Shown here: positions 24,866-31,491 of the stretch, one piece after another
How the letters are laid out: the number at the start of each line of letters is the position of its first letter
Numbering within the stretch: position 1 is the stretch's first letter
Source: the human T2T-CHM13v2.0 reference genome, Homo sapiens
Length of the DNA: 64,000 nt
Assembly (NCBI RefSeq): GCF_009914755.1
Contig: NC_060926.1
Reading direction: 5' to 3' (one strand)
Made by a program: the position numbers and the translations under genes
The notes under the pieces: generated by a model
What the model was told of the DNA's origin: nothing
Seen by the model: the letters and a program-made list of their open reading frames with translations, nothing else
The model's database searches: none

Positions 24866-26925
24866 TTAGTGTTACACTGTCTTTATTACCATAGCTCTGT
24901 AATAACTTTTGAAGCCAGGTAGTGTCACTCTTCTGATTTTCTTCCTCTCCTTCAATATTGAGTTGGTTATTCTGAGTCTTTTGCCTCTCCATATGAACTT
25001 TAGAATTGGTCTATAGATATCCACAAAATAATTTACTAAGATTTTGAGTTGGATTGCATTGAATGCATAGGTAAAATTGAAAAGAGCTGACATCTTGAAA
25101 ATATTGAGTCTTCCTATCCATGAACATGAAATATCTCTTCCATTATTTAGTTTTTCTTTGCTATCTTTCAGAGTTTTACAGTTCCGTTCATATGAATCAT
25201 ATACATATTTGATAGATTTATAACTAAGTATTTCATTTTGAGGGGTGCTAATGTAAACGGTAGTGTGTTTTCATTTCTTTATTTTTATTTTTTACCATGT
25301 TCTATCATCAGTGTTTAAGTGGTTACATGTTTTAAAATTCAAATTCTACTTGTTTGTTGCTAGTATAAAGGAAAGTTATTGACTTTTGTATATTAACCTT
25401 ATATTCTGCAATCTTGCTACAATCACTTATTAGTTCTAGGAGTTTTTTGTTGATTCTGTTGGATTTTCTTCATAGACAGTCAGGTCATCTTCAAACAAAG
25501 ACGGTTTTGTTTCTTCTCTCTCAATCTGTGTACCTTTTTTTGTTTGTTTCTTGTCTTGTGTATTAGCTAGGACTTCCAATACAATGTTGAAAAGGAATGG
25601 TGTGATGGGACATCTTTGCCTTGTTCCTGATCTTGTGAAAAAGCTTTGAGTTTCTCACCATTAAATAAGATGTTAGTTGTATACTGTTTTGTAGATACCC
25701 TTTATCAAATTGGGGGAGGTCCCCTCTATTCTGTTTGCTGAGAGTTTCTAACATAAATGGGTATTGGAATTTGTCAAATGCTTTTTCTGAATCTATTGGT
25801 ATGATCATGTACTTTTTCTTCTTTAGCTCGTTGATGTGTTGGATTACATTAACTGATTTTTGAATGCTGAACAAGTCTTGAATACCAGGTGTATATCCCA
25901 CTTGTCCATGGTGTATAATTCTTTTTATACATGGTTAGATTCAATTATCTAATGTTTGTTGAGAGTTTTTGCATCTATATTCATGAGAGATATTGGTCTG
26001 TAGTTTTATTTTCTTAGAATGCCTTTGTTTAATTTTGTTATTAGATTGATGCTGACCTCATAAAATAAGTTAAGGTGTACTTCCTCTGCTTCTGTCTTCT
26101 GGAAGAGATTGTAGAAAATAGGTATATGTTTTTCCTTTAATATTTGGTAGAATTCACCAGTGAAGCCATGTGGAGTTGGTGCTTTCTGTTTTGGAAATTT
26201 ATTATTTATTCAATCTCTCTAATTGTTATAGGTCTATTCAGATTGTCTATTTATTCTTAGGTGAGTTTTGGCAAAATGTGACTTCCAGGGAATTGGCCCA
26301 TTTTATCTAGGTTAACAAATTTATGGGCACAGTGTTGTTCATAGTATTCCTTTATCATTCCTTCAGTGTTCTTGGGATCTGTAGTGATGTCCCCTCTTTC
26401 ATTTTTTATATTAGTAATTTGTGTTTTCTTTCTTTTTGCCTTATTTAGCTTGGCTAGAGGCTTATCAATTTTTTTCATCTTTTCAAAGAACCAGCTTTTG
26501 GCTTTGTTGATTTTCTCTGTTGCTTTTCTGTTTTGAATTTCATTGATTTCTGCTTTAATTTTTATTTATCTTTTCTGTTACTTTACATTTAATTTTCTCT
26601 TTTTGTTGCAGTTTCCAAAAGTGGAAGCTTAGATGATTGATTTTACATCTTTCTTCTTTTCTAATATATAAATTCAATGCTATACATTTTCCTCTTAGTA
26701 TTGCTTTCACTATATACCACAAATTTTGATAAGTTGTATTTTTATTTTTATTTAGTTAAAAATATCTTTAAATCTCTATTGAGATTTCTTCTTTGGCCTA
26801 TGTTTTCTTTAAAAGTGTATTGTTTAATCTCCAAGTATTTGGCTATTTTCCAGCTATCTTTCTTTTCTTTTCTTTTCTTTTTTAAACAAACCACATGACT
26901 GTGTTAGCCACCTCTTTAGTTTTGC

Positions 26926-28430
26926 TTTTTTTAAAATTTATTATACTTTAAGTTCTGGGATACATGTGCAGAACGTGCAGGTTTGTTACATAGGTATACA
27001 TGTGCCATGGTGGTTTGCTGCACCATAAACCCATCATCTACATTAGGTATTTCTCCTAATGCTATCCTTCCCCTAACCCCTCACCCCCAAACAGGCCCTG
27101 GTGTGTGATATTCCTCTCCCTGTGTCCATGTGTTCTCATTGTTCGACTCCCACTTATGAGTGAGAAGATGCAGTGTTTGGTTTTCTGTTTCTGTGTTAGT
27201 TTGCTGAGAATGATGGTTTCCAGCTTCATCCATGTCCCTGCAAAGGACATAAACTCATCCTTTTTATGGCTGCATAGTATTCCATGGTGTATATGTGACA
27301 TATTTTCTTTATCCAGTCTATCATTGATGGGCCTTTGGGTTGGTTCCAAGTCTTTGCTATTGTGAACAGTGCTACAATAAACATACGTGTGCATGTGTCT
27401 TTATAGTAGAATGATTTATAATCTTTTGGGTATATATGCAGTAATGGGATTGCTGGGTCAAATGGTATTTCTGGCTCTAGATCCTTGAGGAATCGCCACA
27501 CTGTCTTCCACAATGGTTGAACTAATTTACACTCCCACCAACAATGTAAAAGCGTTCCTGTTTCTCCACATCCTTTCCAGCATCTGTTGTTTCCTGACTT
27601 TTTAATGATCGCCATTCTAACTGGCGTGAGATGGTATCTCATTGTGGTTTTGATTTGCATTTGTCTAATGACCAGTGATGATGAGCTTTTTTTCATACGT
27701 TTGTTGGCTACATAAATGTCTTCTTTTGAGACATGTCTGTTCATATCCTTCGCCCACCTTTTGATGAGGTTGTTATTTTCTTGTGAATTTGCTTAAGTGC
27801 CTTATAGATTCTGGATATTAGCCCTTTGTCAGATGGATAGATTGCAAATTTTTTCTCCCATTCTGTAGATTGCCTGTTCATTCTGATGATAGTTACTTTT
27901 GCTGTGCAGAAGCTCTTTAGTTTAATTAGATCCCATTTGTCAATTTTGGCTTTTGTTGCCGTTGCTTTTGGTGTTTTATTCATGAAGTCCTTGCCCATGC
28001 CTATGTCCTGAATGGTATTGCCTAGGTTTTCTTCTATAGTTTTTATGGTGTTAGGTCTTAGGTTTAAGTCTTTAATCCATCTTGAGTTACTGTTTTTATA
28101 AGGTGTAAGGAAGGGGTCCAGTTTCAGTTTTCTCATATGGCTAGCCAGTTTTCCCAACACCATTTATTAAATAGGGAATCCTTTCCCCATTGCTTGTTTT
28201 TGTCAGGTTCCTCAAAGATCAGATGGTTGTAGATGTGTGGCATGATTTCTGAGGCCTCTGTCTTGTTCCGTTGGTCTATATATCTGTTTCAGTATCAGTA
28301 CCATGCTGTTTTGCTTACTGTAGCCTTGTAGTATAGTTTGAAGTCAGGCAGCATGATGCCTCCAGCTTTGTTCTTTTTGCTTAGGATTGTCTTGGCTATA
28401 TGGGCTCTTTTTTGGTTCCATATGAAATTT
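26926..28430 (-). mobile_element. 5'-truncated L1PA7/8-like element
   Basis: 3' end TTATTATACTTTAAGTTCTGGGATACATGTGCAGAACGTGCAGG; well-preserved ORF2 C-terminal sequence. Confidence 0.93.
27226..28163 (-). pseudogene. Disrupted L1 ORF2p C-terminal region including the Cys-rich motif
   Basis: ORFs 27741-28163 and 27226-27744 translate to L1 ORF2p text ([26 protein letters not shown]) across frameshifts. Confidence 0.9.
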
Positions 28431-28511
28431 GGAACTCCTGACCTCAGGTGATCCACCCACCTTGGCCTCTCAAAGTGCTGGGATTACAGGCATGAGCCAC
28501 CACACCCAGCC
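28431..28511 (-). mobile_element. Alu 5' fragment (first ~81 nt) fused to the L1PA 5' end
   Basis: Minus reads GGCTGGGTGTGG...GGATCACCTGAGGTCAGGAGTTCC then L1 AAATTTCATATGGAACC. Confidence 0.9.
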
Positions 28512-28599
28512 AATGATGAATTTTTTAAGAGAAAATAGCATTAGGAAGAATTAAAAGGAAGGCAAAGCCTCTGAAAGATCCAGAGGAAAATTTTAGGAA

Positions 28600-30718: not shown

Positions 30719-30719
30719 A

Positions 30720-30858
30720 TATATTCTATTCACCATGGCAGACCACATTATGGGCCATGCACCTATCTTAGCAAGTTTAAAACAACAGAAACTACACAAT
30801 ATCTGCTCTCAGACTACAATAGAATTAAATCAGAAATTGATAAAAGAAAGATAGCTAG
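30720..30858 (+). mobile_element. L1 ORF2 endonuclease-end fragment; inverted continuation of the L1MC1-like element
   Basis: CTCTCAGACTACAATAGAATTAAATCAGAAATTGATAAAAGAAAGATAGCTAG ends exactly where the minus-strand L1 begins at 26866. Confidence 0.85.
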
Positions 30859-31145
30859 GGCCGGGCACGGTGGCTCACGCCTGTAATCCCAGGACTTTGG
30901 GAGGCTGAGGCGGGTGGATCACGAGGTCAGGAGTTCGAGACCAACCTGGTCAACATGGTGAAACCCCATCTCTACTAAAAACACAAAAATTAGCCAGGCA
31001 TGGTGGCACGCACCTGTAATCCCAGCTACTCGGGAGGCTGAGGCAGGAGAATTGCTTGAATCCAGGAGGTGGAGGTTGCAGTGAGCTGAGATCATGCCAC
31101 TGCACTCCAGCCTGGGTGACAGAGCAAGACTATGTTAAAAAAAAA
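30859..31145 (+). mobile_element. AluS (5' part Sg-like); probable hybrid at an inversion breakpoint
   Basis: Full Alu whose two flanks do not form a TSD with each other but each matches a flank of the element at 26850-28526. Confidence 0.9.
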
Positions 31146-31491
31146 TCATTATTTTGTTGTAAATCCAATATTGTTTTAAATTATTTAAATGTCACTTTAA
31201 ATGTTGTTATAAATCCAGTTCTCTTCACTCCGCATCAAACAAGGCAAGGTGTGATCACACAGACTATTTGGGGGTGGGTGGCTGTGGGTCGTCATCTCCA
31301 CAGTGCTTGGTTTCTCTTCTCAAATCTACAGCTTGGAGTAGGTTGATTTCCCTGCCTGTTTCCCAGGGAAGCGTTGCACTACCCATATGGCAGCTTTCTC
31401 ATACTCCCTGTCTGCATTCCTCTGTTTCCCTAAATGAATGGAATATCTTGGATGAACTACTGCAAGGTCCTTTGGGTCTCTCCCACACAGT

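What the first reader, a model, noticed from the sequence alone, without database searches (positions are those of the whole stretch)
26850..31153. Cryptic Alu-mediated inversion revealed by swapped TSDs and an L1 that changes strand
Seen: (1) The minus-strand L1MC1 breaks off at 26850-26866, reading AAAAGAAAGATAGCTGG on minus. Its missing upstream part appears on the PLUS strand at 30720-30858, ending AAAAGAAAGATAGCTAG (16/17 match) directly before the Alu at 30859. (2) The 5' flank of the minus Alu fragment (28512-28526, AAAAAATTCATCATT on minus) matches the 3' flank of the plus Alu (31139-31153, AAAAAAATCATTATT; 13/15). Each element therefore carries one TSD copy from each of two original insertions. 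Established: exchanged TSDs are the signature of recombination between inverted Alus. Inference: the ~2.35-kb segment 28512-30858 (ERVL pol, MIR, L1 pieces) was flipped. Whether this is fixed, lineage-specific or polymorphic cannot be seen here.
Basis: partly seen in the sequence, partly recalled or inferred. Interest (0 to 1): 0.8.

Follow-up and report, generated by a model that had tools for sequence, protein, structure and literature searches.

The report
Small old inversion between inverted Alus
A 2.35-kb piece of intergenic human DNA was flipped after two retroelement insertions, most likely by exchange between two oppositely oriented Alu sequences; this is a well-known kind of rearrangement and touches no gene.

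Summary
A 15-nt word lies once on each strand (26852-26866 and 30842-30856), each copy exactly at a retroelement end. The second flank pair matches 13/15; only 3 of 127,972 window 15-mers do as well. Un-inverting 28512-30858 in silico and keeping one copy of the 15-mer gives an old L1 (L1M-type ORF2) that aligns collinearly across the join, with no gap there, to 7 of 7 other genomic L1M copies. In the present orientation neither element has matching flanks.

So an inversion after both insertions is very likely (~0.9). Exchange between inverted Alu sequences is the best mechanism (~0.65).

It is only Alu positions 1-80, fused to the 5'-truncated end of a 1.5-kb L1PA 3' piece, followed by a unique 42-nt stretch and a second A-rich tail.

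The two Alu arms differ by a subfamily-level 2-nt indel and in CpG decay, which argues against a simple inverted duplication.

Ancestral orientation, age and polymorphism could not be tested, because no primate or pangenome data were available. This is a new member of a known class (RRMI; Lee et al. 2008). Interest is low.

The parts
25328..26866 (-). Downstream part of an old L1 (L1M-type) ORF2. On the minus strand it begins with the 15-nt duplicated word.
   Evidence: Collinear blastn alignments to L002-L008. 26260-26565(-) matches human LINE-1 ORF2p residues 342-441, E 2e-27. The left limit is only as far as the reference loci reach.
26852..26866 (-). TSD-A, copy next to the A-rich tail (AAAAGAAAGATAGCT on the minus strand; 17 nt with one mismatch if 26850-26851 are counted).
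   Evidence: (I10).
26867..26883 (-). Second A-rich tail of the composite insertion (A/G-rich on the minus strand).
   Evidence: Read.
26884..26925 (-). 42-nt stretch of unknown origin between the L1PA poly(A) and the second tail; unique in the genome.
   Evidence: Only the self match in the own genome (with up to 3 mismatches). No local match.
26926..28431 (-). L1PA-type LINE-1 3' part (about 1.5 kb, 5'-truncated), with a short poly(A) at its low-coordinate end.
   Evidence: 91-94% identical to other genomic copies. Homology stops at 28430 in all 5 copies that reach that far.
28432..28511 (-). Alu head, positions 1-80 only, long form at the 2-nt indel, no CpG left (0 of 6 sites).
   Evidence: (D1, I4, I15).
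28512..28526 (-). TSD-B, copy now at the 5' end of the left Alu head.
   Evidence: 13/15 to 31139-31153.
28512..30858 (.). The inverted segment (2,347 nt between the two Alu 5' ends). The true exchange points lie inside the Alu sequences.
   Evidence: (I4: 2,347 nt between the arms).
28658..29971 (-).
   Evidence: 1.2-1.3-kb alignments at 62-65% identity to 5 of 9 dispersed copies, shorter alignments to the other 4. Pfam rve E 0.059, below the curated cut-off.
30539..30726 (+). End of another short interspersed repeat (30539-30701) plus an A-rich tract (30703-30726), abutting the 5' end of the L1M piece.
   Evidence: 22 non-self matches within query 568-730.
30727..30858 (+). Upstream piece of the same old L1, now on the opposite strand. 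It ends with TSD-A copy 2 (30842-30856) plus AG.
30859..31138 (+). Full-length Alu, short form at the 2-nt indel. CpG kept at 5 of 7 sites up to column 80 and at 1 of 15 beyond.
31139..31153 (+). TSD-B, copy at the 3' end of the right Alu (overlaps its A tail).

Best explanation
Two retroelement insertions came first.

(a) A composite landed in an old minus-strand L1M ORF2 and duplicated a 15-17-nt target, TSD-A. The composite is made of an Alu head, a 5'-truncated L1PA 3' part, a 42-nt unknown stretch and an A-rich tail.

(b) About 2.3 kb away, a full-length Alu landed in the opposite orientation in unique DNA and duplicated about 15 nt, TSD-B.

Later, an ectopic exchange between the two inverted Alu sequences flipped everything between them (28512-30858). 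Each Alu 5' end then came to lie next to the other element's target-site copy, and the 131-nt upstream piece of the L1M was carried onto the plus strand.

Shown: the swapped flanks, the restored L1 collinearity, and that the two Alu arms are not plain copies of each other. Inferred: that the exchange was homology-driven, the order and dates of events, and how the left Alu came to be only 80 nt. It may have been co-inserted as a partial Alu/L1 chimera, or been cut down by a deletion at or after the inversion.
For: - TSD-A: 15/15 identical on opposite strands. One copy abuts the A-rich tail of the composite; the other sits 2 nt before position 1 of the right Alu (I10, 12).
- TSD-B: 13/15. One copy abuts position 1 of the left Alu head; the other abuts the A tail of the right Alu. 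Background is 3 of 127,972.
- In the present orientation the flanks of each element do not match (best 8/12 and 7/12).
- Both duplicated words start with an A run preceded by T on the sense strand. This fits the TT/AAAA LINE-1 endonuclease motif quoted in PMC11838501 (passage).
- The un-inverted join with one TSD copy aligns as a single HSP across the join to 7 of 7 L1M copies, with no gap in the TSD columns. In L002 the two window pieces map to locus 1501-1633 and 1614-3059 on opposite window strands.
- Inverted Alu arms are present at both breakpoints (I4, 64 nt at 84%; I15, 14 nt at 100%).
- The arms differ by a 2-nt indel that is a family-level polymorphism: 11 short and 31 long forms among 42 sampled Alus.
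- The arms differ in CpG decay: 0/6 sites kept on the left, 4/6 on the right.
- The right Alu has a mosaic CpG pattern: 5/7 kept up to column 80, 1/15 beyond. Permutation p is 0.012 and it ranks 2 of 42.
- TSD swapping is the published criterion for this class, and 12 of 49 published cases carry deletions of the elements or of internal sequence (PMC2603318).
Against: - No outgroup or second human haplotype was available, so the ancestral orientation is inferred from this one sequence.
- The left partner offers only 80 nt of homology, and the part of an Alu beyond position 80 is missing. This needs an extra assumption: a partial chimera or a deletion.
- Published Alu/LINE-1 chimeras usually carry a full-length Alu (PMC11838501 section 32).
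- The mosaic signal in the right Alu is weak. One control Alu of 42 scores higher, and non-CpG mismatches show no age difference (left 1/67, right 5' part 1/65, right 3' part 5/164).
- Diagnostic columns do not prove chimerism.
- TSD-B is A-rich, and only 7/9 once the A run is removed.
- The 42-nt stretch is unexplained.
Confidence: 0.65

Rival explanations
1. Alu-associated break repair without a clean reciprocal crossover. The inverted Alu pair caused a double-strand break. The right junction was healed using Alu homology, and the left junction by end joining with loss of the original left Alu (and possibly some L1PA 5' sequence). The 80-nt head on the left would then derive wholly from the original right Alu.
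For: The left head is wholly CpG-decayed and long form, like an old Alu. The first ~80 columns of the right Alu keep CpG (5/7) and the rest does not (1/15). The best split falls between columns 80 and 100, just where the left head ends. Lee et al. report deletions in 12 of 49 RRMI and discuss end joining at inverted repeats.
Against: The mosaic statistic is modest (p 0.012; rank 2 of 42; no non-CpG support). No junction microhomology or filler is evident at 28431/28432. Present sequence cannot separate this from a crossover in the last 14 identical bases of an 80-nt homology.
Confidence: 0.2
2. Non-homologous inversion with staggered breaks. A plain 5'-truncated L1PA insertion (TSD-A) and a plain Alu (TSD-B) existed. 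Two breaks, one of them staggered over Alu positions 1-80, inverted the segment and left an 80-nt inverted duplication of the Alu head.
For: It explains without further events why the left Alu piece is short and abuts the L1PA 5' end directly.
Against: The arms are only 85% alike: 10 substitutions plus a 2-nt indel in 80. The indel reproduces a subfamily polymorphism (11 short, 31 long of 42). At two CpG sites the arms carry different decay products. All 6 sites are lost on the left against 2 of 6 on the right, which requires an intact CpG set at duplication followed by very uneven decay. It also needs both breaks to fall exactly at element ends.
Confidence: 0.07
3. No later inversion. The opposite-strand L1M piece is the inverted 5' segment of a twin-primed L1M insertion, or a second independent L1M fragment, and the 15-nt overlap is the twin-priming junction overlap or chance.
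For: Twin priming gives an inverted upstream segment with a short overlap. It is the commonest source of small inversions in humans (bioRxiv 10.1101/2021.12.20.472354, abstract only).
Against: The two L1M pieces are 3.86 kb apart. Part of the DNA between them found no other genomic copy (query positions 1-34, which include 28527-28657, and most of 29972-30538). It therefore cannot all be later insertions. The overlap coincides within 2 nt with an A-rich tail on one side and an Alu 5' end on the other. The model leaves TSD-B unexplained, and both younger elements without TSDs.
Confidence: 0.03

Closest known systems
Retrotransposon recombination-mediated inversion, Alu-RMI type (Lee, Han, Meyer, Kim, Batzer 2008, PLoS One 3:e4047; PMC2603318)
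   Same: Inverted same-family elements sit at both breakpoints. Each element carries non-matching TSDs that match after swapping. The size (2.35 kb) lies within the published 166 bp-81 kb range. Some published cases also lose part of an element.
   Different: The locus is not among the 49 human/chimpanzee RRMI loci of Table S1; its chr2 entries lie at 35.4, 181.3, 234.1 and 242.2 Mb in hg18. One partner here is only an 80-nt Alu head fused to an L1PA fragment. The ancestral state was not shown with outgroups.
Alu/LINE-1 chimeric insertions (PMC11838501, 2025 preprint, section 32)
   Same: After un-inverting, a sense-oriented Alu piece is fused directly 5' of a 5'-truncated L1, and the whole is flanked by one TSD pair and ends in an A-rich tail.
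   Different: Published chimeras typically have a full-length Alu. Here only 80 nt remain, and a 42-nt unique stretch plus a second tail follow the L1 poly(A).
L1 twin-priming inversions
   Same: An upstream L1 segment lies on the opposite strand to its downstream continuation, with a short overlap.
   Different: The segments are not adjacent, the overlap coincides with the ends of two younger elements, and a second flank pair is swapped as well.

Membership tests
Alu recombination-mediated inversion (RRMI) | Two elements of one family in opposite orientation span the two breakpoints. | tested here: met
   I4 (28448-28511 / 30859-30922, 84%) and I15 (14 nt, 100%). The left element is only 80 nt long.
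Alu recombination-mediated inversion (RRMI) | TSDs of each breakpoint element do not match each other but match those of the partner. | tested here: met
   TSD-A 15/15 (16/17) and TSD-B 13/15 across elements. Present-orientation flanks reach at best 8/12 and 7/12. The criterion is stated in PMC2603318.
Alu recombination-mediated inversion (RRMI) | Breakpoint elements are chimeric. | tested here: inconclusive
   CpG mosaic in the right Alu (5/7 against 1/15; p 0.012; rank 2 of 42). There is no support from non-CpG sites or from diagnostic columns.
Alu recombination-mediated inversion (RRMI) | Un-inverting restores continuity of an older sequence cut by the insertions. | tested here: met
   L1M collinearity in 7 of 7 reference copies. 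This was possible at junction A only; junction B lies in unique DNA.
Alu recombination-mediated inversion (RRMI) | Outgroup species show the opposite (ancestral) orientation. | not testable with these tools
   No primate genomes or human pangenome data were available.
L1 twin-priming inversion | The inverted 5' segment directly abuts the 3' segment inside one insertion with one TSD pair. | tested here: not met
   3.86 kb lies between the pieces, including stretches with no other genomic copy. The boundaries coincide with other elements' ends.
Alu/LINE-1 chimeric retrocopy | A sense Alu is fused to a 5'-truncated L1, with one TSD pair and a 3' A tail. | tested here: inconclusive
   The fusion is direct, and a TSD pair is present after un-inverting. 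But the Alu part is 80 nt rather than the typical full length, and the fusion could also come from a deletion.

The most novel reading that the evidence does not exclude
The recombination partner was never a whole Alu. It was an 80-nt Alu head co-inserted with the L1PA piece as a multi-part chimeric retrocopy: Alu head, L1PA 3' part, a 42-nt piece of a third template or a 3' transduction, and a tail. The inversion would then have been driven by no more than 80 bp of homology, with the exchange in the last 14 identical bases. That is at the lower edge of what is reported for Alu-mediated inversions. A further open possibility is that the inversion is recent or still polymorphic in humans. Nothing here excludes it; I put that at about 0.1.
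Probability: 0.3. Interest if true: 0.35.

Novelty: new member of a known kind. Interest (0 to 1): 0.25.

Why it matters
It adds one clean, internally documented example to the known class of small inversions made by inverted Alu repeats. It shows that such events can be recognised from a single genome by swapped target-site duplications plus a strand-switching older repeat.

The locus is intergenic, between REEP1 and KDM3A, with no annotated gene or functional element in the window, so no phenotypic consequence is expected.

The unusual left partner, an 80-nt Alu head on an L1PA fragment, is of modest interest for two questions: how little homology such exchanges need, and how chimeric retrocopies arise.

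Tried and rejected
(1) Source of the 42-nt stretch (26884-26925), tested as a possible 3' transduction. The own-genome DNA search matched only the L1 3' end part of the query. The exact-pattern search with up to 3 mismatches found only the locus itself. There was no local match. A diverged source would have been missed, so the question stays open.

(2) Repeat-collinearity test at the second junction. The right flank 31139-31495 has only its self match. The interspersed repeat inside the segment ends at about 28658, about 130 nt short of the junction. No test was possible.

(3) Protein-level placement of the 47-aa plus-strand L1 piece on ORF2p: no PDB hit at E<=1. The downstream piece did match.

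(4) Pfam labelling of the 'ERVL pol' region: only rve at E 0.059, below the cut-off. The other matches were spurious.

(5) Subfamily-diagnostic columns to prove that the right Alu is chimeric. At 8 of 9 diagnostic columns beyond column 80 it has the long-group state, although it is short form at the indel. However, short-form Alus with those states exist in the sample, so this is not conclusive.

(6) Literature.
- The locus is not among the 49 RRMI loci of PMC2603318 Table S1.
- There were 0 occurrences of numbers starting 86391-86396 in the 2 held supplementary files of PMC13721702 (coordinate system not checked).
- A search for REEP1 + KDM3A + inversion gave 2 irrelevant papers.
- The supplements of the bioRxiv inversion catalogue (10.1101/2021.12.20.472354) are closed and may list the locus if it is polymorphic.

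(7) Earlier findings of this scan were not open.

(8) Twin priming, an independent second L1M fragment, and the staggered-break duplication were considered and judged unlikely; see the rival explanations.
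Full report
**Anatomy (coordinates refined by later calls)**

From left to right on the plus strand:
- An old L1 (L1M-type) ORF2 fragment on the minus strand, running up to 26866.
- A 17-nt T/C-rich run, 26867-26883. On the minus strand it is an A/G-rich tail.
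- A 42-nt stretch, 26884-26925.
- A 1.5-kb L1PA-type 3' part on the minus strand, 26926-28431, with a short poly(A) at its low-coordinate end.
- Alu positions 1-80 on the minus strand, 28432-28511, fused directly to the L1PA 5' end.
- 2,347 nt of mixed sequence, 28512-30858.
- A full-length Alu on the plus strand, 30859-31138.
- DNA from 31139 to 31495 that is unique in this genome.

**The observation**

The repeat finder reports a 15-nt, 100% complementary pair at 26852-26866 / 30842-30856 (I10). It also reports the two Alu arms (I4, 64 nt at 84%; I15, 14 nt at 100%).
- The 15-mer occurs only at these two places among 127,972 positions on both strands. Counting two more bases gives 16/17.
- The second pair, 28512-28526 (minus strand) against 31139-31153, is 13/15. 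Only 3 of 127,972 window 15-mers reach that score against the right flank: itself, the partner and one other.
- Stripped of the A run, the second pair is 7/9, which 398 of 127,984 9-mers reach. Its weight therefore comes from both copies sitting exactly at element ends.
- In the present orientation the flanks of either element do not match (best 8/12 and 7/12).
- Both duplicated words begin with an A run preceded by T on the sense strand. This fits the LINE-1 endonuclease motif TT/AAAA quoted in PMC11838501 (passage).

**The L1 test**

The own genome (T2T human) could be searched. The plus-strand piece 30700-30858 found 39 other matches, all starting at about query position 28-30, that is window 30727/30728.

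In a script I joined 30700-30856(+) to the reverse complement of 26000-26851, that is, the un-inverted state with a single copy of the 15-mer.
- It aligned as one HSP across the join (position 157) in 7 of 7 reference loci: L002-L008, for example L006 query 28-1001.
- A MAFFT alignment shows no gap in the 15 TSD columns in any of the 8 rows.
- Seen from the reference side, in L002 the two window pieces map to 1501-1633 and 1614-3059, on opposite window strands.
- The downstream piece is L1 ORF2: 26260-26565(-) matches human ORF2p residues 342-441, E 2e-27.

The name L1MC1 itself was not tested, because no repeat library was available.

**What this means**

A target-site duplication is made when an element inserts. 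The two TSD-A copies now lie on opposite strands, so one inversion breakpoint must lie between them, inside or at the end of the inserted composite. The same holds for TSD-B and the right Alu.

Each swapped copy abuts an Alu 5' end, so the breakpoints lie in the Alu sequences. This is the published signature of retrotransposon recombination-mediated inversion (Lee et al. 2008, PMC2603318; Methods passage).

I put the inversion itself at about 0.9.

**The left partner**

It is 80 nt of Alu head joined to the L1PA.
- L1PA homology to 11 other copies (91-92.5% identity) stops at 28430 in all 5 copies that reach that point; the other 6 end earlier.
- No part of an Alu follows the L1PA poly(A).
- The 42-nt stretch after the L1PA poly(A) is unique in the genome, and a second A-rich tail follows it.
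- After un-inverting, the unit flanked by TSD-A is therefore: Alu head, L1PA 3' part, 42 nt, tail.
- Alu/LINE-1 chimeric insertions are described, but typically with a full-length Alu (PMC11838501 section 32).
- Alternatively, a deletion removed the rest of the Alu. Deletions accompany 12 of 49 published RRMI.

I cannot separate these two readings from this sequence.

**Are the two Alu arms copies of each other?**

If the inversion were non-homologous with a staggered break, the 80-nt head would be a duplicate of the right Alu's head. The evidence argues against that:
- The arms differ at 10 substitutions, 8 of them at CpG-derived sites, plus a 2-nt indel.
- The indel is a family-level polymorphism: 11 short and 31 long forms among 42 near-full-length Alus sampled from the window and stored loci. 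In the first sample of 24 it was 8 short, 15 long and 1 lacking the region.
- In the 24-Alu sample, CpG is retained at 0 of 6 sites in the left head, 4 of 6 in the right Alu's first 80 columns, and 3 of 18 beyond (Fisher p 0.038).
- With 42 Alus defining 22 sites, the right Alu keeps 5 of 7 up to column 80 and 1 of 15 from column 100 on. The best split falls between columns 80 and 100. Permutation p over all splits is 0.012, and it ranks 2 of 42.

Against over-reading this:
- One control Alu scores higher.
- Non-CpG mismatches show no difference: 1/67, 1/65 and 5/164.
- Diagnostic columns are not decisive.

The data argue against a plain duplication. They hint, no more, that the right Alu is a mosaic whose switch point lies where the left head ends.

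**Age (rough, inferred)**
- The L1PA piece is 91-94% identical to its best genomic relatives (only 40 of 10,679 candidates were scored). That is about 4% per copy.
- At a rate of about 0.17% per million years, which I recall and did not take from any call, this is on the order of 20-30 million years. It is the upper bound for the inversion.
- One difference in 17 (TSD-A) and two in 15 (TSD-B) are compatible with such ages.
- The locus is not among the 49 human/chimpanzee RRMI loci of Lee et al. Table S1. This is weakly consistent with an event older than that split, or with its having been missed.

**Not done or not possible**
- Outgroup and pangenome comparison.
- Naming of repeat subfamilies.
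- A collinearity test at junction B, which lies in unique DNA.
The internal repeat at 28658-29971 is dispersed in the genome and has only a sub-threshold integrase-core match.

**Verdict**

This is a real, ordinary example of a known rearrangement class in gene-free DNA. It has a slightly unusual left partner and one unexplained 42-nt insert.

Noticed in passing
window 26884-26925: A 42-nt stretch between the L1PA poly(A) and a second A-rich tail, unique in the genome. It may be a 3' transduction from a lost or diverged source, or a third template in a chimeric retrocopy.
   Followed up: partly
window 31486-31737: A third Alu, on the minus strand, forms a close inverted pair with the right Alu (I1: 164 nt, 87% complementary, 409 nt apart). 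Read, it appears to lack its 3' end and A tail at about 31490.
   Followed up: no
window 30539-30726: About 160 nt of another interspersed repeat, followed by an A-rich tract, abuts the 5' end of the L1M piece. This suggests the L1M inserted into the tail of an older element.
   Followed up: partly
locus L034, Alu at about 2664 (+): This control Alu shows an even stronger 5'/3' CpG-retention mosaic than the right Alu of the finding. Such patterns therefore occur elsewhere, for unknown reasons.
   Followed up: no
window 14351-14698: A pentanucleotide (CTTTT-type) repeat matches the A-rich tail motif of the composite.
   Followed up: no
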